A stretch of 64,000 nt of DNA, from NCBI GenBank assembly GCA_045568995.1, contig JBJKZY010000045.1:4281-68280 (forward strand), read 5' to 3'. This document shows positions 3,737-20,699 of the stretch, piece by piece. Both the position numbers and the translations under genes were made by a program. Origin of the DNA: Fidelibacterota bacterium (GTDB lineage Bacteria > Fidelibacterota > Marinisomatia > Marinisomatales > UBA1611). Position 1 is the first letter of the stretch. Every line of letters starts with the position of its first letter. The notes under the pieces were generated by a model. The model worked only from the letters and a program-made list of their open reading frames with translations, was not told where the DNA came from and searched no databases.

Positions 3737-3892
3737 TTTTAAACTATTTGTTACCTAAAATTACTAAAGAGATTTGATCAGCACAAAAAAAATCCACACA
3801 AAAACATTTTATTTTTACATATAAAAATAGAAAAACATAAAAAAAAACTGTAATTTTTAAGGTGAATATACATGTGGATAACTTGTGGATAA
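3737..3892. promoter_or_regulatory. Candidate oriC / dnaA autoregulatory region with DnaA boxes
   Basis: Two perfect TGTGGATAA boxes at 3873-3881 and 3884-3892, degenerate boxes at 3790-3798 (AAATCCACA) and 3861-3869 (GGTGAATAT), a very AT-rich tract at about 3800-3860, located between rpmH and dnaA. Confidence 0.75.
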
Positions 3893-5243
3893 TATAAAAA
3901 AAGACGTTTCTTCTGCCTGGGGTCAGGTTCATCTTTATTTAGAAAAAAAACTTCCTGGGCACGCAATTCATGCTTGGTTTGAACCAATTGTGCCTACTGG
4001 TTTTCGAAATAATTCTTTCGTTTTAGAGGTTCCTAACCAGTTTTTTCTTGAGTGGATAGAGTCTCATTACAAAGACGACATTATTATGGCGATTGAAAAG
4101 ACATATAGTAAAAACATTGAGTATAAACTTTTGGTTACAAAGGAAAAAAGGAAGAAAGCGGACAGTGGGATCTCCAAACCTTCTTTTGTTGAAGCTAAAC
4201 CAAAAAGGTTCAACAACCTAAATCTTAAGTATACTTTTGAAAACTTTATTGTTGGCAGCAACAATGAATTCGCTAAAACGGCATCTGAATCAGTTTCAAA
4301 TCACCCTGGTGAACAAAACTTTAACCCTCTTATTATTTATGGAGGTGTAGGTTTAGGAAAAACACATTTGATGCACGCCATAGGAAACCTTGCATTAAAA
4401 AAGAATAAGGACTTAAATATTGTAAATATTACCAGTGAACAGTTTACTCTAGACTTTGTTAACAGTCTTAGAAAAAACAAAACTATTGAGTTTGCTCAAA
4501 ACTACCGTTCCGCAGATATTTTATTAATAGATGACATTCAGTTTTTTCGAGGAAAAGAGCAAACTCAAGAACAGTTTTTTCATACATTTAATGTTTTACA
4601 TCAAAGTGGTAAACAAATTGTTTTAACGGCAGATAAGTTTCCAGGAGAAATGAAAGGATTACAAAGCAGGTTGCTTTCTAGGTTTCAATCAGGGCTTTCG
4701 GTTGATGTTCAGCCTCCAAACTTCGAAGTTAGAGTTGCAATCCTTTTAGAAAAAGCGGATCAAAATGGACTTTCTTTAGATTACTCAACTATTGAATTTA
4801 TTGCCAGGCATATAAAAAACAACGTTAGAGAACTTGAAGGTACGATTATTCGTTTATTAGCGAAGTCATCCCTTCTTAATGTTGAAATCAACAATCGTTT
4901 GGTTACAGAAGTGGTTAAAGAAAGGGTGGGGGGAAGAATTGGAAATGAGGTTTCTATTGAAAATATTGTAAAAAAGGTTTCCGAAATTTCCCATGTAAAA
5001 GAGGTTGATATTGTAGGAAAAAGTAGAAAAATGGAGATTGCTGAGGCTAGACAGATATCCATGTATCTTTGTCGAGATATGATGGGAACCTCTCTTAATA
5101 ACATCGGGATGTTTTTTGGAGGTCGGGATCATACTACAGTGATGCATGCGCTAAAAACAATAAATGTAAAAAAATCAAATGATGTTCGCATGAAAAAAAT
5201 GATCACTTCCATAAGGAAAGAACTAGGGTTTTCTTTCTTATAG
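3885..5243 (+). CDS. dnaA: Chromosomal replication initiator DnaA
   Basis: YTFENF, NPLIIYGGVGLGKTHL, LLIDDIQF, QEQFFHTFN, NVRELEG, GGRDHTTVMHA. Confidence 0.98.
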   Translation: MDNIKKDVSSAWGQVHLYLEKKLPGHAIHAWFEPIVPTGFRNNSFVLEVPNQFFLEWIESHYKDDIIMAIEKTYSKNIEYKLLVTKEKRKKADSGISKPSFVEAKPKRFNNLNLKYTFENFIVGSNNEFAKTASESVSNHPGEQNFNPLIIYGGVGLGKTHLMHAIGNLALKKNKDLNIVNITSEQFTLDFVNSLRKNKTIEFAQNYRSADILLIDDIQFFRGKEQTQEQFFHTFNVLHQSGKQIVLTADKFPGEMKGLQSRLLSRFQSGLSVDVQPPNFEVRVAILLEKADQNGLSLDYSTIEFIARHIKNNVRELEGTIIRLLAKSSLLNVEINNRLVTEVVKERVGGRIGNEVSIENIVKKVSEISHVKEVDIVGKSRKMEIAEARQISMYLCRDMMGTSLNNIGMFFGGRDHTTVMHALKTINVKKSNDVRMKKMITSIRKELGFSFL

Positions 5244-5334
5244 AAAGGATGAAAAAAACCTATTACTTTATAATGATTGTTTTTTAAAAAAAATTATCGG
5301 TAAAAATAGAAATAAAAAATTAAAGGAGTTGTAA

Positions 5335-5739
5335 ATGCAAAAAAGTAGCGTTAATAAGGTAATTATTGTAGGAAACTTGGGACAAGACCCCGAAGCGAGG
5401 TTTACTCCCCAAGGAACCGCCGTTACAAACCTTAGTATTGCCACGAATGAATCTTGGAAGAATCAAGAAGGTCAAATACAAGACAGAACCGAATGGCACA
5501 GGGCTGTTCTTTACGGAAAAATGGCCGAAACAGCAAGTCAATATATGAAAAAAGGTTCTATGGTGTATGTTGAAGGTCGACTTAGAACAAAAGAATGGGA
5601 AGACCAAAACCAGAACAAACGGAAGACCACAGAAATAATGTGCGACAATTTTACCATGCTTGGTCGCAGGGGAGATAGTGCGCCAAGTTCAACCAATGAG
5701 TCGAGCACTTCAACAGAAGATGATGACTTACCGTTTTAA
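5335..5739 (+). CDS. ssb: Single-stranded DNA-binding protein
   Basis: VNKVIIVGNLGQDPE, TEWHR, VYVEGRL, acidic tail DDDLPF; AAGGAG RBS. Confidence 0.97.
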   Translation: MQKSSVNKVIIVGNLGQDPEARFTPQGTAVTNLSIATNESWKNQEGQIQDRTEWHRAVLYGKMAETASQYMKKGSMVYVEGRLRTKEWEDQNQNKRKTTEIMCDNFTMLGRRGDSAPSSTNESSTSTEDDDLPF

Positions 5740-5772
5740 AAAGTAGCCTTTAATAACGTTATTTTTTTCAAT

Positions 5773-6507
5773 ATGAAAAAAACGTTTGGCCCAGAATATT
5801 TATCTCAACTAACGCCAAGAAGCTTTACGGTAAGATATCTTTTAACTTATGTCTCTTTTTTTTTGTGTTCAACGGTTGCAAGAACAAAAGTTAATGGGCG
5901 CAGGAACCTTCCTTTAAAAGGACCATTTGTCGTTGCCAGTAACCATTTTAGTAATTATGATCCCCCTTTCTTTACCTATGGAATTCAAAAACCTGTTAAC
6001 TTTATAGCTGCAAGCGACCAAGAGGTTGAGTGGTGGTTAATATGGGCTCCGTTTTTATATGGCTGGATCCCTGTTGATAGAAAAAAACTAGCACCATCTA
6101 CTATTAAAAGGGCTTTGGAGGTTTTAAAAAAAAATGAGATATTAGGAATTTTTCCAGATGGAGGAGTTAATGAAACAATTCTTGGAAACCCTAAAAATGG
6201 AACAGTTTATTTATCAACAGTTGGAAAAGCACCGATAATTCCGATGGCTATTTATGGAGCAGAAAACGCCATTGAAAACGTTTTAAGGGGTGTTAGGCCT
6301 AGGGTGACAGTCAATATAGGAAAACCGTTTGGACCTTTTGAAATAAAAGGATCCAAAGATAAAAAAGACAAAGCTTTACAAAAAATTGGAAATGATATGA
6401 TGATAAGAATTGCTTCTTTGCTACCGGAGGACCGACAAGGTTCATATTTTAAGAATGACAAAATCAAAAAATATCAATCGGAAAATGGGTTTATACCAAA
6501 CCCGTAA
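5773..6507 (+). CDS. plsC: 1-acyl-sn-glycerol-3-phosphate acyltransferase (PlsC family)
   Basis: NHFSNYD (HX4D), IPVDR, IFPDG (usually FPEG), APIIP. Confidence 0.8.
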   Translation: MKKTFGPEYLSQLTPRSFTVRYLLTYVSFFLCSTVARTKVNGRRNLPLKGPFVVASNHFSNYDPPFFTYGIQKPVNFIAASDQEVEWWLIWAPFLYGWIPVDRKKLAPSTIKRALEVLKKNEILGIFPDGGVNETILGNPKNGTVYLSTVGKAPIIPMAIYGAENAIENVLRGVRPRVTVNIGKPFGPFEIKGSKDKKDKALQKIGNDMMIRIASLLPEDRQGSYFKNDKIKKYQSENGFIPNP

Positions 6508-10085: not shown

Positions 10086-10892
10086 CTATTCTGGTTTTTT
10101 AAAAGTTGCGCTCTTGTATATTAATTTGTTTTGAATAAATGAATTATAAACATCGCTACCTTTAATTCCTGCATAAGACATAAAAACTGGTTGAATAAAT
10201 TTTGGAACGTGTTTTTTTATTTTTTCTTTACGCTCGCTGCTCATCTTTTTTAGTGCGTCTATAACAAAGTCTGTAATGTTTTTTTCACGAATTTTTACCA
10301 ATCCTGATTCTAAAAAAGAATTGAAAAGAATGGGCATTTCTTTTGTTTTTCTAAAATCTGCCCATAGAAAAAAACCTCCAGGTTTAAGCACTCTTTTAAC
10401 TTCGTTTAAAAACAAAGGTATGTTTCCATAGCAGTGGGAGGACTCAACATTAAGTACAATATCAAAAGACCGATCCTTGAAAGGTGCTTTTTCCGAATCA
10501 CCAACACAAAAAGACAAATTTGAGTATTGGTGTGTTGAGCTACAAAGTCCAACAGCATTTTTTGATATATCAATTCCAACAACGGATTTTGGGTCTAAGT
10601 ATCGGGAAACATACGACGCACCACCTCCTCTCCCAGACCCCACCTCAAGGACTTTTTTTCCAGCAATGTTTTCCTGGCTAGCTGTGTGATGGTAAAGTTG
10701 GGCTGGGTATCGTTCACCTTCTTCTTTTGAGTCTGTTTTTATAGAAAGAATTTCATCGGAGTATCCATAGTTCATGAAAAAAAAATCATGTGTGTAAGCT
10801 TTCTTAGCAAAAAAATTATACCAGGATTTCCAAAACCAACGTTTTGTTTTTGGGCCAAAATGAATTAGCCGAACTAGTAGGTTTTGAATCAA
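10086..10892 (-). CDS. Class I SAM-dependent methyltransferase, lipid O-methyltransferase-like (phthiotriol dimycocerosate / fatty-acid O-methyltransferase type)
   Basis: FMNYGY, RYPAQLYH, VLEVGSGRGGGA, VLNVESSHCY, RVLKPGG. Confidence 0.8.
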   Translation of the reverse strand: MIQNLLVRLIHFGPKTKRWFWKSWYNFFAKKAYTHDFFFMNYGYSDEILSIKTDSKEEGERYPAQLYHHTASQENIAGKKVLEVGSGRGGGASYVSRYLDPKSVVGIDISKNAVGLCSSTHQYSNLSFCVGDSEKAPFKDRSFDIVLNVESSHCYGNIPLFLNEVKRVLKPGGFFLWADFRKTKEMPILFNSFLESGLVKIREKNITDFVIDALKKMSSERKEKIKKHVPKFIQPVFMSYAGIKGSDVYNSFIQNKLIYKSATFKKPE

Positions 10893-10914
10893 CTTAAAGG
10901 CCCCCTAATAAATA

Positions 10915-11721
10915 TTATCTTTTATTTTCATTAATTGCGCCCACAACTTTTTTTTCAAGAAACCCATTGAAAAAAACCTTTAAAAACGGAATTAATGATA
11001 GTTTTTTAGGGATGTATACGGTTTTTAAATCTTTTTCAATTGATGTAATTATTTTTTTTACACATTGTGCAAGAGGAACGGCTTCTTTAGTATGTTTTCT
11101 TGTAAAGCCTTCTTGTTTTTTACCATCAACTCCAAAAGAGTTGCTTCTAAGGTCGGTGCCCTTTATCCAACTAAGTACCGCTTCTAAAACCGTTATCTCT
11201 TTCTTGTTTTCCATTCGAATTGTAGAAAGAAACCCATGCAAAGCATGTTTTGAAGCGACATATCCAGAATGGTTTGGAAAACCCATAATGGCTTGCCCAG
11301 TTGAGCAACTAATTATCTTACCTCTTGTTCTCTTTAAAAAAGGAAGAGCAGCGTGAACGCAGTAAACCGAACCTAAATAGTTTGTGTCCATAATTGTTTT
11401 AAAAAAACTTACATCTTTTATTTCATCAAACCTTGCCCACATGCTTATGCCAGCATTAAGAATAAGCCCATCAATTCTACTAAATTTTTTTATGGTTTGA
11501 TTTACAATTTTTTCACATTGGTCTTTTTCTGTTATGTCAGCTTGTATTGGAAAAGCTGTTCCACCATTGTTGTTTATGTTTTTACAAAGAGTTTCAAGTT
11601 TTGTCATTGTTCTCGCTGCGCACACAACGGAAGCTCCCTTTAATGTAAGTTGATAGGCAAGCTCTGAACCTATTCCAGAAGAGGCACCAGTGATGATAAA
11701 AACTTTGTCTTTAGTAATCAA
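10915..11721 (-). CDS. Short-chain dehydrogenase/reductase (DHRS7/7B-like)
   Basis: ITGASSGIG, LNAGIS, YVASK catalytic motif. Confidence 0.85.
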   Translation of the reverse strand: MITKDKVFIITGASSGIGSELAYQLTLKGASVVCAARTMTKLETLCKNINNNGGTAFPIQADITEKDQCEKIVNQTIKKFSRIDGLILNAGISMWARFDEIKDVSFFKTIMDTNYLGSVYCVHAALPFLKRTRGKIISCSTGQAIMGFPNHSGYVASKHALHGFLSTIRMENKKEITVLEAVLSWIKGTDLRSNSFGVDGKKQEGFTRKHTKEAVPLAQCVKKIITSIEKDLKTVYIPKKLSLIPFLKVFFNGFLEKKVVGAINENKR

Positions 11722-11748
11722 TTAAGTTGTTTCTTTTCCTTTTAAAGG

Positions 11749-13506
11749 TCAATCGCTAAAAACGTTATTTGCAACACCAAAAACATTTGTTGGGTCTTGA
11801 GAGTTCTTCAGGCCTTTAACAAGCTCCATACTTCCTTCAGAAATCATACTTGGTAAGAAGTCTTTTCGGAGTTTTCCAACACCATGGTGGTGAGAAATTG
11901 AACCTCCATTCTCAATAATAGTTTTTCTTAGTTCATGTTCAATTTCACCAAAGACTTTTTCTGGGTCTTTGATTCCTTTGAAACTCATAGCAATGGTATT
12001 ATACATACAGGCACCACTATGATATACTTTTGATAATCTAGAACCAAACAGAAAAGTACCAGGTAGGTTGTGTTTTTTATGAAGTTCTTTTAATTTTTTT
12101 GTGACAGCTTCACTTACTTTTATCACATCAGACCACGGAACTGCGCTCTCCAAGGTTTCACCTATGATGTTTTGATCCATAAAAAAATCTCTAATGTATG
12201 CAATCGCAAGCGTTAGGTTATACCCACTTTTACCCTGATTGGAACCTGCAAAAACAGGGTTGTATTTTTTTGCTAAAATTTTTAGGTTTTTTTTCTGGTA
12301 GGTCACTTCTTGAACAGAACCTTCCATTTTAAAGACAGCAACAACACATTGTTTTGGGTCAAAACCTTTTATTTTAAAAACCATGAAGTTTTTTAAAGAA
12401 TCTATGGTTTTTTTCACTCCGGTTTTTTTTTCTTTCAAGGCACTTGCAAATCGAACCATTGAATTGTCCATTAACCTTGAGCTTGCAGGGATTAAATTGG
12501 AACGAGCAAGTTCATTCATAAAGCTTACACCATCTTTCCAATTATGAAAAAGGATAGATTCAAAAGTAGAAGATTCGGGTTTTTTATGGATTCTAATAGT
12601 CGCTTTTGTTATTATTCCAAAGTTACCCTCTGAACCGAAAATCATATTCTGAGCTTTTACTCCAATAGATGATCTTGTTAATGGTTTAATCTGGTTTATT
12701 GTTCCTTTGGGTGTAACTAGAGTTACATTCTGTACAATATCTTCTATGTTTCCGTAACGATGTTTTTTCATTCCTGAAGCATTGGTTGATATCCAACCAC
12801 CAAGAGTAGAGAACTCAATACTGTCAGGTTCGTGTCCTGCTGTATATCCTATTTTTTGCAATTTATTTTCTAGGTCTATACCTAAAATGCCGGACTGTAC
12901 TGTTGCTAAAAGATTTTCTTCATCCACAGATTCAATTTTATTCATTCTTCGAGTGTCAACTGAGACAACCATCCTGTTTTCCTTTTTGGGAATTTTTAGT
13001 GCATTTGAAACGCTTGTTCCTCCGCCAAATGGAATTAAACAGACATCGTGTTTCTTTGCTAAAGAGATCAATGTTTTTGCTTCTTCTTCACTTTCAATAT
13101 AGAAAACTAAATCTGTAAAAGCTTCTAGGCTTGAATATAAAACCTTATATACTTCATCTGAAGTGGTTTGTCCATGGCTATGCAAAAGCCTTTCTTTATT
13201 AGAGGAACAAAACCGATCTTCGTCAAAAAGAGAGGATAGCTCATCTACAAAGGGTTTGTTTATTTTTTGTTTTGAAATTGGTTTTTTTTCAACTTCTTTG
13301 ATTTGAGGGTTTGGTAAAATCTTTATACCCAAAACATCTTCTGCAAAAGGGATTAGATTAGGCAGTTTTTTAGAACAAATGTTATAACGGTTTCCAGAAA
13401 GAACAACGTCTTTATCGCCTTTAGAAATAAAGGCAGAGTCTTTATAACCCCACCTGTGTTCCCAATTAGTATTGTTTACAGCATAGAATTTTTTTGATTT
13501 ATCCAT
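11749..13506 (-). CDS. Alkyl-dihydroxyacetonephosphate synthase (AGPS)-like FAD-linked enzyme
   Basis: PFGGGTSV, GHEPDSIEFSTLGGWISTNASGMKK.RYGNIED, GSEGNFG, SRLMDN, AYIRD, GACMY, ISHHHGVGK; these closely match eukaryotic AGPS motifs. Confidence 0.88.
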   Translation of the reverse strand: MDKSKKFYAVNNTNWEHRWGYKDSAFISKGDKDVVLSGNRYNICSKKLPNLIPFAEDVLGIKILPNPQIKEVEKKPISKQKINKPFVDELSSLFDEDRFCSSNKERLLHSHGQTTSDEVYKVLYSSLEAFTDLVFYIESEEEAKTLISLAKKHDVCLIPFGGGTSVSNALKIPKKENRMVVSVDTRRMNKIESVDEENLLATVQSGILGIDLENKLQKIGYTAGHEPDSIEFSTLGGWISTNASGMKKHRYGNIEDIVQNVTLVTPKGTINQIKPLTRSSIGVKAQNMIFGSEGNFGIITKATIRIHKKPESSTFESILFHNWKDGVSFMNELARSNLIPASSRLMDNSMVRFASALKEKKTGVKKTIDSLKNFMVFKIKGFDPKQCVVAVFKMEGSVQEVTYQKKNLKILAKKYNPVFAGSNQGKSGYNLTLAIAYIRDFFMDQNIIGETLESAVPWSDVIKVSEAVTKKLKELHKKHNLPGTFLFGSRLSKVYHSGACMYNTIAMSFKGIKDPEKVFGEIEHELRKTIIENGGSISHHHGVGKLRKDFLPSMISEGSMELVKGLKNSQDPTNVFGVANNVFSD

Positions 13507-14230
13507 ATAAGAATTTAGTCTTTTCTTTGATTTGGTTTTCTAAGTATTCGGTCATTTTTTTTGTTGCTTTTTGAATATCCTCTTTGTTCGGGTTTTTTTC
13601 TTTTAAAAACCTATCTGGGTAAATAGGTTTTAATATGATAACTTTTATTTTTTTTGGCCAACCAAAAAAAATTTTTCCACGAGGCCAGACTAAATGAGAT
13701 CCATAAATAATAGCTGGAAGTATTGGCTTGTTTAAATGAATTGAAAACCTTGCTGTACCCAGGTGGAAAGGTAAGACCTCGCCAGGTTTTCCTCGGGTTC
13801 CCTCTGGAAACATAATTAGGTTACGTTTTTCAAAATTCATAAAAGCCCTACAAAGAGACAGAGTGTTTTCAATTGAGAATTTACGAACTCCGTTAACTTT
13901 TCTATCGATAGGAATTAGGTTCATCACCATGTTTATTGATATTCTTCTAATCCAACTGTCAAAAAAATAATCTTTTGCTGCAAGCATAGCCATTTGGTTA
14001 TAGGTCTTTCTTGTTGATACCGAAAGTAAGGCAACATCAAGGTGACTGTTGTGGTTACTGCAAGCTATAAATGAATCATCGGGTATGTTTTCTTGCCCTT
14101 GTACTGTTACTGGTGTGTATATCGTAAAAACAGTTTTTGAATAATAATAAAATAATGTTTTAAATATTTTATAATAAAAAGGCTGTTTTTTAATTAAGTA
14201 AGAAAATTTTGGATTGTTGAGAACATCCAT
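13499..14230 (-). CDS. Glycerolipid acyltransferase (PlsC/GNPAT superfamily)
   Basis: NHNSHLD, AAKDYFF, IPIDR, MFPEGTR; overlaps the AGPS start by 8 bp. Confidence 0.88.
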   Translation of the reverse strand: MDVLNNPKFSYLIKKQPFYYKIFKTLFYYYSKTVFTIYTPVTVQGQENIPDDSFIACSNHNSHLDVALLSVSTRKTYNQMAMLAAKDYFFDSWIRRISINMVMNLIPIDRKVNGVRKFSIENTLSLCRAFMNFEKRNLIMFPEGTRGKPGEVLPFHLGTARFSIHLNKPILPAIIYGSHLVWPRGKIFFGWPKKIKVIILKPIYPDRFLKEKNPNKEDIQKATKKMTEYLENQIKEKTKFLYG

Positions 14231-14238
14231 TTTTGTTT

Positions 14239-15399
14239 TTATTTTCTTCCATATTTCATATGGGCATCTGTCCAGGTGTGTGATCCAATAGCGCAGATAA
14301 GTGAAATTTCCAAAGACAGGGTGGCTCCAGCAATAATTTCGGCAAGCTTTCTACTGGAATGTTCTCCTTCAGAGCAACCTAAAAGTTGAAGGTTTTTATT
14401 TTGCATTTTTAATCGAGTTCCACCACCTACAGTTCCAACCGTTAAGGAAGGAAGCGTAAGTTTAAACTTAAGAGCATCTTCCCTTTTTTCTAATCCGACA
14501 TGTGCTACGCTGTTTTCTGCTGCACAAGCAGCATCTTGACCAGTTGCTAAATAAATTGCAGTAAGGGCATTAGAAACATGAAGCCCATTTCCATGGGTTC
14601 CAGCCATGCTTGAAACAATTGGGAAAAAACTCCAAGCATCAAATAGTATATCGGGATCCATTTTCAATATTCGCTTCATAACACTATTTTTGATTGTTGT
14701 TTCTGCTGTCACTCCATGCCCTCGACCAAGAATCATGTTTCTTACGGATGCTTTTTTATCGCTATTCATATTTGATTCAAGAAAGTAGTTGTGATTGGTT
14801 TCTTTTTGGATGTATTCGCACGCAACTTTTGCTGCTAAGGTTACCATGTTTTGTCCAGCTGCATTACTTGTGTCAAGAACAAGGTCTAAAATAACATAGT
14901 TCTGAACTGTATATTGATCTATACGTAACACTCGACCGTGGTTTGTAGTTCCTTCAGCCACTTTTTTGATTTTGTCTTCATTTTTAGTCACCCACACTTG
15001 AAAATCTGAACTATCCTTTAAGTTGTCAAAAATAAAAACAGGTGCTCGGGATAGTTCTTGGCGGAAGTGATTTACTTTTATTCCACCAGAAAGGGCAGAG
15101 GCGTAAATTCCCCTGTTCATTGACATTGCAAGCGTACCCTCTAGAGTACAAACAGGAACACAGAATTCTCCCTTTGCGTATTTTCCGTCAATAATCATTG
15201 GGCCAACTACGGCCATAGGAACCTTCATAAAACCAACGTGGTTTTCAATAATTCCTTGAAGGTCTTCTGCTTTATCTTCTAGCGTATCATCAATCTCAAC
15301 ACCAGCATATTCTTTAACCCAAGACTTTCTTGCCTCTGTATCTTCTTGTTGGTATCCACGAGGGATTGATGTTCCTCGCCCATTTGTTTCTTCTGTCAT
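14239..15399 (-). CDS. Class I HMG-CoA reductase-like protein
   Basis: ENHVG, PVCTLEG, NAAGQNM, SDKK, ATGQD, GTVGGGT and C-terminal His (DAHMKYGR). Confidence 0.88.
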   Translation of the reverse strand: MTEETNGRGTSIPRGYQQEDTEARKSWVKEYAGVEIDDTLEDKAEDLQGIIENHVGFMKVPMAVVGPMIIDGKYAKGEFCVPVCTLEGTLAMSMNRGIYASALSGGIKVNHFRQELSRAPVFIFDNLKDSSDFQVWVTKNEDKIKKVAEGTTNHGRVLRIDQYTVQNYVILDLVLDTSNAAGQNMVTLAAKVACEYIQKETNHNYFLESNMNSDKKASVRNMILGRGHGVTAETTIKNSVMKRILKMDPDILFDAWSFFPIVSSMAGTHGNGLHVSNALTAIYLATGQDAACAAENSVAHVGLEKREDALKFKLTLPSLTVGTVGGGTRLKMQNKNLQLLGCSEGEHSSRKLAEIIAGATLSLEISLICAIGSHTWTDAHMKYGRK

Positions 15400-15558
15400 T
15401 TGTATTTTTCTTTTAAATATTATAAGTAATTTGTGTACAAGGTAATTTAGGTGTCTATTTTCATTAACTTAAATCCTAAGCACATCGTATAAATATACTA
15501 GAAGCAACAAACCTATTCAAACAAAAATACTAGAGCTTGTTTTAGTTCCTTGATATTG

Positions 15559-17016
15559 CTATCCTATGACCAACAGCAATATAAACCCAGCAAAAGCAGC
15601 GAACCCTCCTAAGGTACCAATGGCTGTTGATTTTTGGCGTAAAACACCAACCTCTGACTTGTATTTTTTTTTATATTTCATTTCTTCTTCTTTTGTGTTT
15701 ATTTCGGGAGGATATGTTACGTTTGTTATTTTAGAGGATCCTTTTGCAAGTATAGAAGGAAGAGTTGCACCAAACATCCCGCCTAGGATAAAGCCTGGAA
15801 AAGCTAAAACCCCATCGCTAAATTGACCAAGAGTAAACAAACCAACAACACTCCCAAAGGCACTAGAGGGAACACCTGTTAGTCCAAAAACAGACCAAAG
15901 AGCACCAATGTGTTTTTCTTGTGCATTTTTTTTTGCTAAATCAATAAGCTGTCTATCTGTGAACTTGTCTTCTTTAAGGTATGGGGTCTCATTAGGGGGG
16001 GTGACTATTTCTCCGGTTTCTGGATCAAAAAACCCAGCGACCTTTTTTAACCTTTCTCCTGTTTCCGGGTTAAATATATTCTTTTGTAAATGAGGAAGAG
16101 GTGAAATGGGTTGATCATAATGATGAGGTGGTTTGAAAAAATTATATCCTATGCTTCCCGATACAATGAAATGATAACTATCTGATTTTTCACTTAAAAA
16201 AGGCGATGCTTCTTTTTGATCAAGTATCCAAGTTCCATTTTCATAAACTAAAGGATATTCAAGGCTGTTCCATTTTTCTTTTGGCTGATAATTCGTTGAA
16301 AAGAAATTGTTTACAAGTGAGAAGTCTATTTGGATTTGAAAAGAAGATTTTTGATTAAAAACAGTTTCTTTTCCAATGATTAGACCGAGTCCTAAACTAT
16401 TTGAATTGTATTTAAATTCCTCTTCAATGTTCAGTGTGGGATATATTTCATCTGATGAATTGTAAACTTCGTAATCGGCTAAACCTATTTTATTTATTCC
16501 TGAAACTAAAATACCATGCGCGCCAAAATAAAAAGATTTATTTTTATTGGTAGTGGTTGTTATTGAGGGAAAAAGTTGTACCGTTGGTCCACCCTTGTTA
16601 ATAATGTTCAGTTCAAAAACAGCGCCAATTTTTTGTGGTGAATCTCCAAACAGGTTTGTGTATTTTTTTCTTTGCGCTCCTAAAACGACGCCAAAAGGAC
16701 TTCGGTTGTTTTCATTTGCCCGTAGCAAACCAACACCACCATAAAACCCTGTTTCTGATTGAGTTTTTCCTCTAAGACTTGAAACTACAACCCTAGGCCC
16801 AATTATGCCTAAATCAACTCCTTTAAATTCTCCTCTTTCATAACCCGAATAGTATTCGTTGCTTATGTAGTCTTCGCTAGTCCCCCCTAATGGAAGAATT
16901 GTACTAATTGAGATTACTTTTTCATCTGGCTGTAAAGGTTTTTGAGTTCTAACATGAGCGTTGTTATGGCAACCGAATGTAAAAATTAAAATAAATAAAC
17001 AAGGATAAATTTTCAC
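15559..17016 (-). CDS. Hypothetical lipoprotein/membrane protein with FxPETGE motifs
   Basis: Probable GTG start at 17016 gives a lipobox-like signal (FIL IFTFGC); beta-rich N-terminal half, FNPETGE/FDPETGE, Gly-rich C-terminal TM segments. Confidence 0.6.
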   Translation of the reverse strand: MKIYPCLFILIFTFGCHNNAHVRTQKPLQPDEKVISISTILPLGGTSEDYISNEYYSGYERGEFKGVDLGIIGPRVVVSSLRGKTQSETGFYGGVGLLRANENNRSPFGVVLGAQRKKYTNLFGDSPQKIGAVFELNIINKGGPTVQLFPSITTTTNKNKSFYFGAHGILVSGINKIGLADYEVYNSSDEIYPTLNIEEEFKYNSNSLGLGLIIGKETVFNQKSSFQIQIDFSLVNNFFSTNYQPKEKWNSLEYPLVYENGTWILDQKEASPFLSEKSDSYHFIVSGSIGYNFFKPPHHYDQPISPLPHLQKNIFNPETGERLKKVAGFFDPETGEIVTPPNETPYLKEDKFTDRQLIDLAKKNAQEKHIGALWSVFGLTGVPSSAFGSVVGLFTLGQFSDGVLAFPGFILGGMFGATLPSILAKGSSKITNVTYPPEINTKEEEMKYKKKYKSEVGVLRQKSTAIGTLGGFAAFAGFILLLVIG

Positions 17017-17018
17017 TT

Positions 17019-17873
17019 TTAAGATAGCATAATCATAAACAGAAACCATGCTCCACACCCTAGGAGAACATTTTGAAAAAGTTTGTTTCGGCGTTGTTCT
17101 TTGTGTTTTCTTATCTCATACGGAAGGGTTTTTCGTAATTCTTTACGAACTTCATTTTTTATAAAGTTACGTATTTCATCTTCAGAAAGATTTACAGTAC
17201 CATCTTCGTAATAATACGTTGCTAACCTATCTTTAGTTTCTTTTTGGGGTTTTGATACGTTGTTAGTTGTAGATGATGAATAAACCCTCTTTTCATTTGT
17301 CTGTGTATTATCTTGGTAGGGCTCTTCCTTGACGCCTTCATAAAACGTTTTGGATATAGCTGGTTTTATTTTTGGACTAACAACTTCCAGAAGAGTGTTT
17401 TTAGTCTTTTCTAGTTGCTTTTTTAGAACTTTTTCAGGATCAAAATCAGGTTTTTCTGTTGAACTTTTTTGAGGTTGTTTATTCTCTGAAACACGTTCCT
17501 CTAGTGAGTTCAGTCTTTCTTTTTCTTTTTTGGCTAAAAGCTTTCTTTTTTCAGGGTCAAAAACATCTGGTGTGATTGTTTCCCATTCTCCCGTCATTGG
17601 ATTAAGTTGTGGAGGAAAAAGGATGTCAGCAGTAACGGTGTTTATGCTACAATCATAATCAAAGCTGTAAATATAATTTTTTGTTACAGATTGAATATTA
17701 TCACATTTGAAATAATTAATGTTGTCATCGATTAATAGATGAATGTGTTCCATGTATGTGCCAATAAAATCACCAGAAACAGTATTTCCAGTTTTTAGTT
17801 TTACTTGAACAAGTTCTTGTCCTTTACCAGAAGACACCGTTAATAAAAGTATAACAAGTGCTTTTTTAATCAC
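17019..17873 (-). CDS. Hypothetical secreted, C-terminally anchored protein
   Basis: Probable GTG start at 17873 gives a signal peptide; LKTGNTVSG module, low-complexity linker, C-terminal hydrophobic tail. Confidence 0.6.
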   Translation of the reverse strand: MIKKALVILLLTVSSGKGQELVQVKLKTGNTVSGDFIGTYMEHIHLLIDDNINYFKCDNIQSVTKNYIYSFDYDCSINTVTADILFPPQLNPMTGEWETITPDVFDPEKRKLLAKKEKERLNSLEERVSENKQPQKSSTEKPDFDPEKVLKKQLEKTKNTLLEVVSPKIKPAISKTFYEGVKEEPYQDNTQTNEKRVYSSSTTNNVSKPQKETKDRLATYYYEDGTVNLSEDEIRNFIKNEVRKELRKTLPYEIRKHKEQRRNKLFQNVLLGCGAWFLFMIMLS

Positions 17874-18342
17874 GAAGTCTTCCTGAGATGTCAACTTTTT
17901 GGGTTTTATAAAAAGCATTCTTTCCTACAAAAAACCCCAAAACTGTGCCCAGGGTTGTTACGGTCCCAACGAGCTTAACCTCAGGGTTTTGGATTGCAAT
18001 AATCAGTGCGACATATCCTGCTAGTCCACCTAAAGCAGAGAAACTTGCAGTTATATACAGGTCTTCAGAAACAGGAGGTAGGTAAACAAAATCTACGTTT
18101 TTATGTTTATAAAATTTGGCAGTTTTATTTACAGAGAGCACAAAGTCTTGTTCTGTTATGTTGACTAAAACACCTTGCACTATTTTTGAGTTTTCTGTAG
18201 TAAAACGAATTATTTTCCCTTTGTAATTATTTTTAAAGTTTTCAAGCCTGATTTTCCGAACTTGGTCAGAGTTTGTTTCTACTTGGCCTAATAAGCAGGA
18301 AAACAAGAAACAAGCAAAAGAAACCCTTATAAGATTTTTCAT
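17866..18342 (-). CDS. Hypothetical membrane protein
   Basis: Probable ATG start at 18342; signal peptide, small beta domain, two C-terminal TM helices. Confidence 0.6.
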   Translation of the reverse strand: MKNLIRVSFACFLFSCLLGQVETNSDQVRKIRLENFKNNYKGKIIRFTTENSKIVQGVLVNITEQDFVLSVNKTAKFYKHKNVDFVYLPPVSEDLYITASFSALGGLAGYVALIIAIQNPEVKLVGTVTTLGTVLGFFVGKNAFYKTQKVDISGRLRD

Positions 18343-18357
18343 TATTAACACCAACGA

Positions 18358-19851
18358 TTAAAACTCGAAGAATTCCCAATAAAAATCAAGATATGGTTGC
18401 TGAAAGTGAACACCTACCCTAAAGGTTTCGCTAACAGCATATTGCATTCCAAAGTCAAAGTCAATAAGACTTGGAGCACCTCTTGGAGAATCAAGCGAAA
18501 GTACAGAAGACCCATCGCTACCAATATAATCTTCCCACGTTCTTCCCGCGCTCATAGTTTTATAGCCATTATCAATCCAAGCAAGCGCTAAAAACTTAAG
18601 GTTTTTTCTTAAATCGTATTCAATTCCAGCCCAGATGCGGTAGGGTATTTTATATTTTGCATCATCATTCCATGAAATATCGTATATGCCGTTGTCCTTG
18701 GTAACCGATTTGTTAATTAAATCTTTTCTCTTCATAAAAGCATTGGATACTTTTGCACCAGCGGACCAACCAACCTTTCCTCTTCCAGAAGGATTTGTTC
18801 TCCTAGAAGAAAAAACAATAAACGCGTGTCCATAAAGGTGTCTCTTACCTTCACTTAAGACCTCATTAATTGTTATCTTTGGATTTCCGTTTGTATCATC
18901 CATTTCATTTAAAGGAATAGGTTCTGCTTCGACACTATTCAAATCTATTACGTTTATTGCATGTGAGTATTTACCGACAATGTTAGAAGCGGGGTATCTG
19001 CGATGAATAGCGGCTCCCCATGATGCAGCAAGCTCTTTAGTTGCAGATTTTCTATGGTAAAAACGCATTTTAGCATGAAGATTAAGGTCTCCAGAAAAAT
19101 TAGAACCGAAGACAGAACGCATCATAAACCTATCGGTTAAACCGTACCCAACGGAGAGACCGCTCACATAAAAAGTATTAGCGGTTAATGGAAAAGCAGT
19201 TGGGTCTAAAAAAATACTCATTAATTGGGCTTGCCCTTGATAAAATTGTTTTTTGTTTTCTGTTTGTTTTTCTAAAACTCCACCATAATACCTTTTCATA
19301 CTGGAAATATCTCTTTTTTGAACTACTGCATCTCCATACTTGGTTCGAAGAACAAACTCTTCTTCTGTTTCTCCTAGAACAACACCACTAAACATCTCTC
19401 CTTTTTTGTTTCTAATTTCTGCTGTTTCATCCAGAAACTCGCTCTTAGGAATCGTAAAGCTACCGCTACTTGTTTTTAATGTGGCAACATCATCGTTTAC
19501 AGATATGACTTCTCCATCTCGTACGGAACCATCACGAAAATGGAACTGTTTTTTCATCCCCGCTTCTATGAAAGTAGCAGATGTTTTTTTAGTTTCTTCT
19601 TGTTTTACTTGAGGCTTAGAAACATTGCCAGCTTGAAAAGCCTTTATAACTTCGGCGCCCTGGGTTCGGGAAAGGCCTGTTAACCCAACTCCGTAACTTT
19701 GAAGTAGATAGCTATTTAAGTTCTCAGTTGAAAAACCAGCAGAAACTGCTAAAGAAGAGATCGCTGATTTTTGTCCTGGTAATATTGAACCGGTTTGAGA
19801 AAACAACCAAGAAAACAAAAAAAGACTTAAAAAGGTGGTTTTAAATTTCAT
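18358..19851 (-). CDS. Hypothetical secreted protein, probable C-terminal outer-membrane beta-barrel
   Basis: Signal peptide, two xxDG/KG-x-V/F-x-G-x-V beta modules, alternating beta strands ending FYWEFFEF (terminal Phe); GGAG RBS. Confidence 0.65.
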   Translation of the reverse strand: MKFKTTFLSLFLFSWLFSQTGSILPGQKSAISSLAVSAGFSTENLNSYLLQSYGVGLTGLSRTQGAEVIKAFQAGNVSKPQVKQEETKKTSATFIEAGMKKQFHFRDGSVRDGEVISVNDDVATLKTSSGSFTIPKSEFLDETAEIRNKKGEMFSGVVLGETEEEFVLRTKYGDAVVQKRDISSMKRYYGGVLEKQTENKKQFYQGQAQLMSIFLDPTAFPLTANTFYVSGLSVGYGLTDRFMMRSVFGSNFSGDLNLHAKMRFYHRKSATKELAASWGAAIHRRYPASNIVGKYSHAINVIDLNSVEAEPIPLNEMDDTNGNPKITINEVLSEGKRHLYGHAFIVFSSRRTNPSGRGKVGWSAGAKVSNAFMKRKDLINKSVTKDNGIYDISWNDDAKYKIPYRIWAGIEYDLRKNLKFLALAWIDNGYKTMSAGRTWEDYIGSDGSSVLSLDSPRGAPSLIDFDFGMQYAVSETFRVGVHFQQPYLDFYWEFFEF

Positions 19852-19997
19852 TTTTTCTCCAATTTTAAAAAATACATTTCAAATTTATTTAGTTTTTAAT
19901 CGCATGTTATTATTGTTGCGATATTTTTTAATTTATCTTAATTTAACTTAAGGTTTAATTAAAAAAAAGCAAAGTAAATTTGTTTGGAGAGGGTACT

Positions 19998-20699
19998 GTG
20001 GAAAATGCATTAGAGACAATAAACAAAGTGATGGATAAATATAAATTTAGGCATAAGAGAGATGTTGCTGAATACTTTGGTGTAACACCACAAGCACTCA
20101 GTATATGGATTGCCAAAAACCAAATTCCACCTAAGCACTTATTAAAACTTTCTCAAGAAAACACAAAAGATATTCCTGTTAGTATTAATTCAGGGAGCTT
20201 ATCTGAAAAAGCAAGCTCACCCGAAGAAATGCAGTCTGTTATAGACTATATCATGCGTGAAAATATTTCTCTAAAAGATGAGCTTCGTGGATTAAAAGAA
20301 AAAAGAAAAAATAAACCATTGAAAAAACACCGAGGGGGTGTTTTTGATCGCATAGCAACAGATACTTTATATATATCAGGGAGAATGTCCGATGGGGTTA
20401 TAACGGATTTAGATGGGAAATGGGAAAGTGTAATGGGGTATAAACCATCACAGTTAAAAGGAGCTCGATATGACGGTGAGGATTTAATACATCCAGACGA
20501 TCTAAAAGGGGTTAAAAAGATCGAACAAAACTTAAAAGAATCAACTATAATTTCTTTAACTAGGTATTGCACAATACAGCGTTGGAAGCACGGAAAAACA
20601 GGAGAGTATATTATGCTTAGTATGGTTTGGGATGTAAATGTTGAAGAAGATATTGGTTTGGTGGTTTGCAAGCCGATAGATGGATTTATTAGCGCATAA
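19998..20699 (+). CDS. Transcriptional regulator: CI-repressor-like HTH, coiled coil and PAS domain
   Basis: KRDVAEYFGVTPQALSIW..KNQIP (HTH); WESVMGY...LIHPDD (PAS_3-like); GTG at 19998 follows GGAGAGG. Confidence 0.7.
   Translation: MENALETINKVMDKYKFRHKRDVAEYFGVTPQALSIWIAKNQIPPKHLLKLSQENTKDIPVSINSGSLSEKASSPEEMQSVIDYIMRENISLKDELRGLKEKRKNKPLKKHRGGVFDRIATDTLYISGRMSDGVITDLDGKWESVMGYKPSQLKGARYDGEDLIHPDDLKGVKKIEQNLKESTIISLTRYCTIQRWKHGKTGEYIMLSMVWDVNVEEDIGLVVCKPIDGFISA

What the first reader, a model, noticed from the sequence alone, without database searches (positions are those of the whole stretch)
10086..15399. Candidate bacterial ether-lipid operon mirroring the eukaryotic peroxisomal pathway (acyltransferase, AGPS, SDR) plus an HMGR-like reductase and an O-methyltransferase
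Seen: five tightly coupled minus-strand genes (gap 8, overlap 8, gap 27, gap 22 bp): HMGR-like, HX4D acyltransferase, AGPS-like, SDR, SAM methyltransferase. Known: eukaryotes make ether lipids by acylating DHAP (GNPAT), exchanging the acyl group for a fatty alcohol (AGPS) and reducing alkyl-DHAP (an SDR, DHRS7B/PexRAP); the alcohol comes from an acyl-CoA reductase (FAR). Inference: this operon encodes every step, with the HMGR homologue in the FAR position, and makes an alkyl-glycerol ether lipid that is then methylated. A separate plsC at 5773 would leave the operon acyltransferase free to act on DHAP.
Basis: partly seen in the sequence, partly recalled or inferred. Interest (0 to 1): 0.86.

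Follow-up and report, generated by a model that had tools for sequence, protein, structure and literature searches.

The report
Marine bacterial ether-lipid operon with FcrA
An uncultured marine Marinimicrobia (SAR406) bacterium carries a compact, conserved four-gene set that most likely makes alkyl ether lipids, using an HMG-CoA-reductase look-alike instead of the usual enzyme to make the fatty alcohol.

Summary
Five tightly packed minus-strand genes lie at 10086-15399 with the stated spacings and the stated families.

The AGPS gene is a true orthologue of peroxisomal AGPS: E 5e-129 to the guinea-pig enzyme, with Tyr578, Arg419 and the HHH loop kept. The "HMGR" is not a mevalonate enzyme. It carries the three signature changes of FcrA (S684E, K735F, L862W), the HMGR-fold fatty acyl-CoA reductase described in 2025 (PMC11948995). 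Near-complete relatives have the MEP pathway and no HMG-CoA synthase or mevalonate-diphosphate decarboxylase.

In 301 genomes of the phylum, AGPS and the HMGR-fold gene co-occur in 46. In 44 of those 46 they sit one acyltransferase gene apart. One relative (G217) has a canonical FAR in exactly that slot. The conserved unit is fcrA, acyltransferase, AGPS and SDR.

The methyltransferase is not part of the unit. It is adjacent in only 6 of 32 genomes that have both genes, and it is present in 24 genomes without AGPS.

Closest known systems: the Myxococcus MXAN_1676-1674 operon, and the published suggestion that FcrA feeds ether-lipid synthesis. Verdict: a new variant of a known kind, with no biochemistry yet.

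The parts
14239..15399 (-). fcrA-type gene: an HMG-CoA-reductase-fold, alcohol-forming fatty acyl-CoA reductase (short form, no N-terminal Lad domain)
   Evidence: PF00368 3e-98. Below the NCBIfam HMGR cut-off (269 vs 441.8 bits). Catalytic E87, K215, D289 and H380 are kept. E208 stands at human S684, F259 at K735 and W376 at L862, which are the FcrA signature positions in PMC11948995 section 19. It is the only PF00368 match in the genome.
13499..14230 (-). PlsC/GNPAT-family acyltransferase, proposed to make acyl-DHAP
   Evidence: PF01553 7e-22. NHNSHLD and FPEGTR are invariant in 17 of 17 orthologues. Only 24% identical to the genome's own PlsC, versus 39% to the AT domain of a FAR-AT fusion. 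Overlaps AGPS by 8 bp.
11749..13506 (-). alkyl-dihydroxyacetonephosphate synthase (AGPS)
   Evidence: PDB 4bby E 5.1e-129 over residues 15-580. R344 (=R419), Y502 (=Y578) and H539-541 (=H615-617) are invariant in 16 of 16 orthologues.
10915..11721 (-). classical SDR, proposed NADPH-dependent alkyl/acyl-DHAP reductase
   Evidence: adh_short 2e-45. NF004825 233 bits, above the cut-off of 215. TGASSGIG and YVASK motifs. Adjacent to AGPS in 32 of 33 distinct related loci that extend past AGPS.
10086..10892 (-). SAM-dependent methyltransferase related to mycobacterial lipid O-methyltransferases; a neighbour, probably not part of the unit
   Evidence: NF045823 237.7 bits (cut-off 300) and NF045825 209.6 bits (cut-off 400), both below cut-off. 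Its distribution is uncoupled from AGPS.
15400..15558 (-). 159-bp intergenic region upstream of fcrA; possible promoter and transcript start
   Evidence: Contigs of four RNA libraries from four studies all end at 15469-15476. A promoter-like site lies at 15520-15492, but such sites are no more frequent here than in shuffles. This is a weak hint only.

Best explanation
The four genes fcrA, AT, agps and SDR (10915-15399, minus strand) form a portable module for oxygen-independent synthesis of 1-O-alkyl glycerol-phosphate, the precursor of plasmanyl (alkyl ether) lipids. Proposed steps follow. (1) The HMGR-fold FcrA reduces a long-chain acyl-CoA by four electrons to a fatty alcohol. This is inferred from signature residues and from the published activity of a family member. 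(2) The acyltransferase acylates DHAP to 1-acyl-DHAP (inferred). (3) AGPS exchanges the acyl group for the alcohol and gives 1-O-alkyl-DHAP plus a free fatty acid. The orthology is strong and the catalytic residues are kept; the activity is inferred. (4) The SDR reduces the ketone with NADPH to 1-O-alkyl-G3P (inferred). The product then enters ordinary phospholipid synthesis through PlsC, for example the gene at 5773-6507. The methyltransferase, amidohydrolase, M20 peptidase and EamA genes downstream are lineage-specific neighbours.
For: AGPS: E 5.1e-129 to solved guinea-pig AGPS, with Tyr578, Arg419 and His615-617 kept and invariant in 16 of 16 orthologues.

FcrA: catalytic E/K/D/H are kept, while S684 is E, K735 is F and L862 is W. 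All 15 other AGPS-linked copies tested, from six families, have E at 684, F/Y/L/G/S at 735 and W/F at 862. These are the three changes that PMC11948995 (section 19, read whole) gives as distinguishing FcrA. That paper reports that FcrA reduces C4-C18 acyl-CoA but not HMG-CoA.

No mevalonate pathway: HMG-CoA synthase over cut-off in 0 of 5 genomes, MDD in 0 of 5 and MVK over cut-off in 0 of 5. The sub-threshold hit in G018 is a galactokinase. DXS is present in 4 of 4 near-complete relatives and IspH in 3 of 4 plus a split copy.

Co-occurrence: among 41 relatives the same 19 genomes hold AGPS and PF00368. Among 301 genomes of the phylum there are 46 with both, 3 with AGPS only, 3 with HMGR only and 249 with neither, and 44 of the 46 are adjacent.

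In-situ swap: G217 has FAR (PF07993 219 bits plus PF03015), AT, AGPS and SDR, with 40%, 48% and 39% identity to the window's AT, AGPS and SDR.

Control: the HMGR-only genome G047 has its HMGR fused to a GHMP kinase, next to a decarboxylase, which is a real mevalonate operon.

Other support: no wax synthase in 0 of 5 genomes. No FAR-like match above 52.5 bits in 5 cluster-bearing genomes. The AT's nearest longer relatives are FAR-AT, ElbD-like and A-ACP-AT proteins.
Against: There is no biochemical or lipid evidence for this organism or for any Marinimicrobia.

The own genome is only 52% complete, so the pathway absences rest on relatives.

The characterised FcrA carries an N-terminal Lad domain that this protein lacks. 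My quick tree does not resolve whether the Marinimicrobia clade and the Lad-type clade are one group apart from canonical HMGR, because the deep forks have 0 support.

At K735 the paper reports mostly small residues; here it is Phe.

The AT could equally be a 1-alkyl-G3P (sn-2) acyltransferase, which would leave the source of acyl-DHAP open. Its similarity to FAR-AT domains is only 30-39%, and the comparison set was chosen by similarity to the AT itself.

The SDR is a generic classical SDR, and it is missing next to AGPS in G255.

Co-occurrence counts involve related genomes and are not independent.

In Myxococcus, loss of the AGPS gene reduced ether lipids only slightly (PMC9131029, passages).
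Confidence: 0.72

Rival explanations
1. Same pathway, different job for the acyltransferase. It acylates 1-O-alkyl-G3P at sn-2, after the SDR step, and acyl-DHAP comes from another enzyme.
For: The protein is PlsC-sized (243 aa). Its only solved relative is Thermotoga PlsC (5kym, E 3e-14). TIGR00530 (AGP acyltransferase) is its best NCBIfam hit, though below cut-off.
Against: A separate conserved PlsC lies at 5773-6507. The AT is only 24% identical to that PlsC and is closer to the AT domains of FAR-AT fusions, which PMC13012113 treats as GNPAT equivalents. It overlaps AGPS by 8-14 bp in the window and in G217. AGPS needs a source of acyl-DHAP, and no other candidate was seen.
Confidence: 0.15
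2. One reading: a five-gene operon whose alkyl-glycerol product is O-methylated by the methyltransferase.
For: There is a 22-bp gap to the SDR on the same strand. The best NCBIfam hits are mycobacterial lipid O-methyltransferases. The MT is adjacent in several genera of family f1. MT homologues are commoner in AGPS genomes (32 of 49) than in the others (24 of 252).
Against: Both NCBIfam hits are below cut-off. The MT is adjacent in only 6 of 32 genomes that have both genes, absent from 17 of 49 AGPS genomes and present in 24 genomes without AGPS. The enrichment may simply follow phylogeny.
Confidence: 0.1
3. The AGPS-like flavoprotein is an oxidase or dehydrogenase, and the cluster handles fatty alcohols, aldehydes or another lipid, not ether bonds.
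For: The family (FAD_binding_4 plus FAD-oxidase_C) is mostly made of oxidases and dehydrogenases. The best NCBIfam model is GlcD, far below cut-off.
Against: The score to AGPS is 435 bits, against 96 bits or less to any dehydrogenase in the PDB. The AGPS-specific Tyr, Arg and HHH loop are invariant. It is always linked to an alcohol-forming reductase and an acyltransferase.
Confidence: 0.05
4. The HMGR-fold gene is a real HMG-CoA reductase and its position next to AGPS is inherited coincidence.
For: PF00368 at 3e-98. Sources name it hydroxymethylglutaryl-CoA reductase. All catalytic residues are kept.
Against: The HMG-carboxylate-binding residues are replaced. No HMG-CoA synthase or MDD was found, and the MEP pathway is present. 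The gene is not found in any of the 22 relatives without AGPS. FAR replaces it in G217. The phylum's real mevalonate operon looks different.
Confidence: 0.03

Closest known systems
Myxococcus xanthus operon MXAN_1676 (AGPS), MXAN_1675 (FAR-AT fusion) and MXAN_1674 (NAD-dependent epimerase/dehydratase). Sources: PMC9131029 section 6 passages; PMC13012113 Fig. 1 legend.
   Same: The logic is the same: an alcohol-forming reductase, a PlsC/GNPAT-like acyltransferase, AGPS and an NAD(P) reductase in one operon. The AGPS is about as close to the animal enzyme.
   Different: Here the reductase has an HMGR fold (FcrA type) and not a FAR Rossmann fold. Reductase and AT are separate genes, and the order is reductase-AT-AGPS-SDR. 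The last gene is a classical SDR and not an extended one. No CarF/PEDS1 (PF10520) was found in 0 of 5 genomes, though no control genome rang either. The host is an uncultured marine phylum.
FcrA, the HMGR-related fatty acyl-CoA reductase (Grossi et al. 2025, PMC11948995)
   Same: Catalytic residues are kept. The S684E, K735 and L862 replacements are present. It occurs in genomes without a mevalonate pathway. The paper already suggests that some FcrA feed ether-lipid synthesis, and it notes an AGPS nine genes from Pb-fcrA and a PlsC-like gene beside fcrA in Coxiella.
   Different: This is a short form without the Lad N-terminal domain. It has Phe/Tyr/Leu as well as small residues at 735. It is directly operonic with AT, AGPS and SDR. 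There is no wax synthase in the genomes searched. Marinimicrobia are not mentioned in the main text; I could not see the supplements.
Peroxisomal ether-lipid pathway of animals (FAR1, GNPAT, AGPS, PexRAP/DHRS7B); enzyme names recalled and from PMC13012113
   Same: The four chemical steps are the same and the AGPS is orthologous.
   Different: The reductase is non-homologous. The acyltransferase is small and PlsC-like rather than the large GNPAT. There is no organelle. All four genes sit in one operon.
ElbD-type multidomain ether-lipid enzyme (AMP-binding, ACP, FAR, AT); Lorenzen et al. 2014 as cited in PMC9131029
   Same: The AT here is 31-36% identical to the AT domain of ElbD-like proteins. 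Both systems couple thioester reduction to an acyltransferase.
   Different: There is no adenylation or carrier domain here, and an AGPS is present.

Membership tests
AGPS (alkyl-DHAP synthase) | Full-length similarity to solved AGPS, well above other FAD-linked oxidases | tested here: met
   4bby E 5.1e-129, 435 bits, query 15-580 against chain 93-656. The next non-AGPS hit scores 96 bits.
AGPS (alkyl-DHAP synthase) | Catalytic Tyr578, Arg419 and the His615-617 loop. Positions were fixed from the mutant entries 4bca and 4bc7 and the alignment; the roles are recalled. | tested here: met
   Y502, R344 and H539-541 are aligned and invariant in 16 of 16 orthologues.
AGPS (alkyl-DHAP synthase) | Acyl/alkyl exchange activity on acyl-DHAP | not testable with these tools
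   Needs an enzyme assay.
FcrA (HMGR-fold fatty acyl-CoA reductase) | HMGR catalytic residues Glu559, Lys691, Asp767 and His866 kept | tested here: met
   E87, K215, D289 and H380.
FcrA (HMGR-fold fatty acyl-CoA reductase) | Ser684 replaced by Glu; the Lys that salt-bridges HMG replaced; Leu862 replaced by a bulky residue (PMC11948995 section 19) | tested here: met
   E208, F259 and W376. The same pattern holds in 15 of 15 other AGPS-linked copies. Six canonical rows in the same alignment show S/K/L.
FcrA (HMGR-fold fatty acyl-CoA reductase) | Genome lacks the rest of the mevalonate pathway | tested here: met
   HMGS 0 of 5, MDD 0 of 5 and MVK 0 of 5 over cut-off. DXS in 4 of 4 and IspH in 3 of 4 near-complete relatives. 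The own genome is 52% complete.
FcrA (HMGR-fold fatty acyl-CoA reductase) | Falls in one clade with characterised FcrA, apart from canonical class-I HMGR | tested here: inconclusive
   In the quick tree of 156 rows, the Marinimicrobia clade (100) and the canonical S/K/L clade (97) are separate, but the deep forks have 0 support. No characterised FcrA sequence was at hand. The Lad-type proxy P0248 lies in another clade.
FcrA (HMGR-fold fatty acyl-CoA reductase) | N-terminal Lad domain (only 'certain FcrA' have it) | tested here: not met
   The protein is 386 aa and the Pfam match covers 22-385. No PF25653 was found, whereas P0248 has it.
Canonical class-I HMG-CoA reductase | HMG-binding Ser684, Lys735 and Leu862, and a score over the equivalog cut-off | tested here: not met
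   E, F and W at these positions. TIGR00533 scores 269 bits against a cut-off of 441.8.
GNPAT-type DHAP acyltransferase | Acyltransferase motifs I (HX4D) and III (FPEGTR) | tested here: met
   NHNSHLD and FPEGTR are invariant in 17 of 17. These motifs are shared by all PlsC-family enzymes, so they do not show DHAP specificity.
GNPAT-type DHAP acyltransferase | Preference for DHAP as acyl acceptor | not testable with these tools
   Needs an assay with DHAP, G3P and 1-alkyl-G3P.
Acyl/alkyl-DHAP reductase (classical SDR such as PexRAP or Ayr1; names recalled) | Classical SDR cofactor and catalytic motifs | tested here: met
   TGASSGIG and YVASK; adh_short 2e-45. The substrate was not tested.
Phthiotriol / fatty-acid O-methyltransferase (NF045823, NF045825) | Score over the curated cut-off | tested here: not met
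   237.7 bits against 300 and 209.6 bits against 400.

The most novel reading that the evidence does not exclude
Marinimicrobia (SAR406), one of the most abundant uncultured groups of the ocean interior, put 1-O-alkyl ether lipids in their membranes. They make them without oxygen, using a portable four-gene module in which FAR and the HMGR-fold FcrA are interchangeable. This would make the group a major, so far unassigned source of non-isoprenoid alkyl-glycerol ethers in sea water and sediments. In the lineages where the lipid-type methyltransferase has joined the operon, the product (or the fatty acid released by AGPS) would be O-methylated, giving a distinctive biomarker.
Probability: 0.3. 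Interest if true: 0.72.

Novelty: new variant of a known kind. Interest (0 to 1): 0.55.

Why it matters
Bacterial ether lipids blur the "lipid divide", and they are used as environmental biomarkers whose producers are mostly unknown. The AGPS route is documented genetically in bacteria only for Myxococcus, where it is minor.

This finding is a complete, compact and conserved AGPS operon in an abundant marine phylum. It offers a directly testable candidate pathway: four genes, about 4.5 kb, ready for heterologous expression. It also offers a candidate source organism for marine alkyl-glycerol ethers.

It gives the clearest genomic support so far for the published suggestion that FcrA supplies alcohols for ether lipids, because FAR and FcrA occupy the same operon slot in related genomes. 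Finally, it warns that "HMG-CoA reductase" annotations in these genomes do not indicate a mevalonate pathway.

Tried and rejected
Promoter and terminator scan: 36 promoter-like sites against 41.7 expected from shuffles, so it is not informative.

PF07993 as a test for FAR: the family rings in 14 of 14 control genomes. Only the score ceiling (52.5 bits here, against 219 bits for the G217 FAR) is usable.

PF10520 (CarF/PEDS1) search: 0 of 5, but no control genome rang, so it is a weak negative.

Complex prediction of AGPS with the acyltransferase: no verdict (score 0.00, mark 0.32). It is no evidence either way.

RNA libraries: only short contigs of four metatranscriptomic or transcriptomic runs were laid. 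They show that parts of fcrA, AT and AGPS, and in one run the MT, are present in RNA libraries. One contig (11688-11838) crosses the AGPS/SDR junction. DNA carry-over cannot be excluded, uncovered parts mean nothing, and no DNA run was laid beside them.

HMGR tree: the deep branches are unresolved, so it cannot place the clade relative to characterised FcrA.

A search for an HMGR-AT fusion among longer relatives of the AT: none among the 120 listed of 162 hits. This is weak evidence.

PMC3197636 (passages) concerns archaeal ether lipids and is irrelevant. The sponge-symbiont preprint (passages) only confirms that agps homologues are known in other phyla.

Atlas searches of two upstream ORFs: unnamed clusters only.

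Searches for prior description: "Marinimicrobia" plus "ether lipid" (10 papers, none on this). "FcrA", "fatty acyl-CoA reductase", "AGPS": only PMC11948995 holds FcrA and AGPS together. "HMGR-like" plus "ether lipid" (1 paper). The supplements of PMC11948995 (FcrA distribution tables, Fig. S13) and of PMC13012113 (GNPAT/AGPS datasets) may already list Marinimicrobia sequences.

Full report
**Observation.** One search confirms five minus-strand ORFs at 14239-15399, 13499-14230, 11749-13506, 10915-11721 and 10086-10892. Pfam gives HMG-CoA_red (3e-98), Acyltransferase (7e-22), FAD_binding_4 plus FAD-oxidase_C, adh_short (2e-45) and Methyltransf_11 (6e-20). The same tight string continues through an amidohydrolase, an M20 peptidase and an EamA transporter, with gaps of 7, 9 and 1 bp. 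Spacing therefore does not define the unit; conservation has to.

**Organism.** The window is contig C45 of a 1.56-Mb assembly that is 52% complete. Record titles of closely related contigs name Candidatus Marinimicrobia / Neomarinimicrobiota (SAR406), all of them uncultured marine MAGs or single-cell genomes. Marine metagenomes from at least seven studies hold most of the stretch.

**AGPS.** The 585-aa protein matches solved guinea-pig AGPS at E 5.1e-129 (435 bits) over residues 15-580, and Dictyostelium AGPS at 1.5e-77. The best non-AGPS flavoenzyme scores 96 bits. The alignment shows Tyr578, Arg419 and His615-617 kept. The mutant entries 4bca and 4bc7 fix these positions; the roles of the residues are recalled. 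The corresponding Y502, R344 and H539-541 are invariant in 16 of 16 Marinimicrobia orthologues. I take it as a true AGPS orthologue.

**The HMGR-fold gene: residues.** It is the only PF00368 match in the genome and is below NCBI's HMGR cut-off (269 against 441.8 bits). Aligned to human HMGR, the catalytic Glu559, Lys691, Asp767 and His866 are kept, as are Asn755, His752 and Arg590. Ser684 is Glu (E208), Lys735 is Phe (F259) and Leu862 is Trp (W376).

A literature search led to Grossi et al. 2025 (PMC11948995). I read the abstract, passages of sections 18-20 and the whole of section 19. [quoted passage not shown] They name exactly these three positions as its distinguishing changes: Ser684 to Glu, the salt-bridge Lys (printed as Lys795) to mostly small residues, and Leu862 to a bulky residue.

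In my alignment of 153 rows with all four columns filled (of 163 rows: the query, 12 close relatives and the 150 best representatives), only six rows show the canonical S/K/L pattern. All 15 further AGPS-linked copies that I tested, from six families of the phylum, have E at 684, F/Y/L/G/S at 735 and W/F at 862.

**The HMGR-fold gene: pathway context.** The protein is the short form, without the Lad N-terminal domain of the characterised enzyme. Four near-complete relatives that carry the cluster, plus the own genome, gave these results:
- HMG-CoA synthase over cut-off: 0 of 5.
- Diphosphomevalonate decarboxylase: 0 of 5.
- Mevalonate kinase over cut-off: 0 of 5. The sub-threshold hit in G018 carries the galactokinase signature.
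- DXS: 4 of 4 near-complete relatives.
- IspH: 3 of 4, plus a split copy in G007.

The gene is therefore an orphan with respect to mevalonate.

**Linkage.** Among 41 relatives, AGPS (48% identity or more) and PF00368 are found in the same 19 genomes and in none of the other 22, many of which are over 90% complete. In G006 only a fragment at a contig end was found.

In an even sample of 301 genomes of the phylum, 49 have AGPS and 49 have PF00368, and 46 have both.
- In 44 of the 46, the two matches are on one contig 722-871 bp apart, which is the size of the acyltransferase gene. The other two (G017, G291) have them on different contigs.
- The three AGPS-only genomes are G006 (HMGR fragment seen), G211 (AGPS 650 bp from a contig end) and G217.
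- The three HMGR-only genomes are G047, G058 and G167.

These genomes are kin, so the counts overstate independence. However, the module occurs in six families (f1, f3, f9, f16, f21, f24) and is patchy within them.

**Two natural controls.**
- In G217 the gene directly upstream of AT-AGPS-SDR, overlapping the AT by 14 bp, is a canonical FAR (PF07993 219 bits plus PF03015). Its AT, AGPS and SDR are 40%, 48% and 39% identical to the window's. Two other genomes of the same family, G263 and G282, have the HMGR-fold gene in that slot. This is a non-orthologous replacement in place, and it is the strongest evidence that the HMGR-fold enzyme does the FAR job.
- In G047 the HMGR domain is fused to a GHMP kinase and lies beside another GHMP kinase and a diphosphomevalonate decarboxylase. 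That is a real mevalonate operon, and its HMGR has a different pattern at the signature columns.

**Acyltransferase.** It has motifs NHNSHLD and FPEGTR, invariant in 17 of 17 orthologues. Its only solved relative is Thermotoga PlsC. It is 24% identical (42.7 bits) to the genome's own PlsC at 5773-6507. It is 39% identical (112 bits) to the AT domain of a FAR-AT fusion and 31-36% identical to ElbD-like proteins. That comparison set was picked by similarity to the AT, so it is biased. No HMGR-AT fusion was listed. DHAP specificity is an inference from the needs of AGPS and from the Myxococcus FAR-AT parallel.

**SDR.** It is a classical, probably NADPH-type SDR. It lies next to AGPS in 32 of 33 distinct related loci that extend past AGPS. 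G255 has MerR and ARPP-1 genes there instead. Its substrate is inferred.

**Methyltransferase.** Its best models are mycobacterial lipid O-methyltransferases, both below cut-off. Homologues occur in 56 of 301 genomes: 32 of the 49 with AGPS and 24 without. The MT is within 3 kb of AGPS in only 6 of the 32. It is a neighbour in some genera of family f1, not a part of the module. The amidohydrolase, M20 and EamA genes likewise follow only within family f1.

**Other checks.** No wax synthase was found (0 of 5), which argues against wax esters as the use of the alcohol. No CarF/PEDS1 was found (0 of 5, but no control rang), so alkyl rather than vinyl ethers are expected. Short contigs from four RNA libraries of four studies match fcrA, AT and AGPS. 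One contig crosses the AGPS/SDR junction, and contigs of all four runs end at 15469-15476, about 70-77 nt upstream of the fcrA start. This is a weak hint of a transcript start, no more.

**Comparison with what is known.** Myxococcus xanthus has an operon of AGPS (MXAN_1676), a FAR-AT fusion (MXAN_1675) and an NAD-dependent reductase-like gene (MXAN_1674). Disruption of the AGPS gene lowers ether lipids only slightly (PMC9131029 passages; PMC13012113 abstract, Fig. 1 legend and section 11).

PMC11948995 already proposes that some FcrA supply alcohols for ether lipids. It mentions an AGPS nine genes from Pb-fcrA and a PlsC-like gene next to fcrA in Coxiella. Its main text does not mention Marinimicrobia. 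I found no paper describing this operon, but supplements were closed.

The finding is thus a new variant of a known kind: the AGPS-type bacterial ether-lipid operon with FcrA in place of FAR, fully operonic, in SAR406.

**Verdict.** Confidence in the pathway reading is 0.72 and interest is 0.55.

Noticed in passing
L079 3871-8994 (G217:C11, minus strand): FAR, AT, AGPS and SDR lie together with 14-bp overlaps. A canonical FAR (PF07993 plus PF03015) sits in the slot that the HMGR-fold gene holds in the window.
   Followed up: yes
L090 2722-7085 (G047:C1): A 758-aa HMGR-GHMP kinase fusion lies beside a second GHMP kinase and a diphosphomevalonate decarboxylase. This is a mevalonate operon in another family of the same phylum. 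Its HMGR has Arg at the Ser684 column, as do 18 of the 153 rows, which may mark true bacterial class-I HMGRs.
   Followed up: partly
proteins P0249, P0255, P0263, P0319, P0274, P0283, P0251: HMGR-fold domains with the non-canonical signature are fused to other domains. P0249 has AMP-binding only. P0255 has AMP-binding plus a weak PP-binding match. P0263 and P0319 have AMP-binding, PP-binding and an EcKL/APH-type kinase domain. P0274 and P0283 have the kinase alone. P0251 has a PilZ domain. The adenylation and carrier fusions look like carboxylic-acid-reductase-type lines with an HMGR-fold reductase. Their taxa are unknown.
   Followed up: partly
window 3885-6507: dnaA (3885-5243), ssb (5335-5739) and a housekeeping-type plsC (5773-6507) lie just beside the cluster on the other strand. 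This neighbourhood is conserved across family f1.
   Followed up: partly
window 15559-19851 (minus strand): Four ORFs (499, 299, 162 and 497 aa) upstream of fcrA have no Pfam family. They are conserved upstream in some genera only. The Atlas gives unnamed clusters and weak outer-membrane beta-barrel leads with scores under 0.9.
   Followed up: partly
L084 1432-3037 (G255:C4): Here fcrA-AT-AGPS is followed by a MerR regulator and an ARPP-1 family gene instead of the SDR.
   Followed up: partly
L091 110-1261 (G167:C243): This HMGR-only genome has a 514-aa open frame that scores 423 bits to PF00368, with D/S/W at the signature columns. It is probably a longer FcrA form without a linked AGPS.
   Followed up: no
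window 19980-20699: A 239-aa protein combines a CI-repressor-type HTH with a PAS fold. It is divergent from the upstream ORF block.
   Followed up: no
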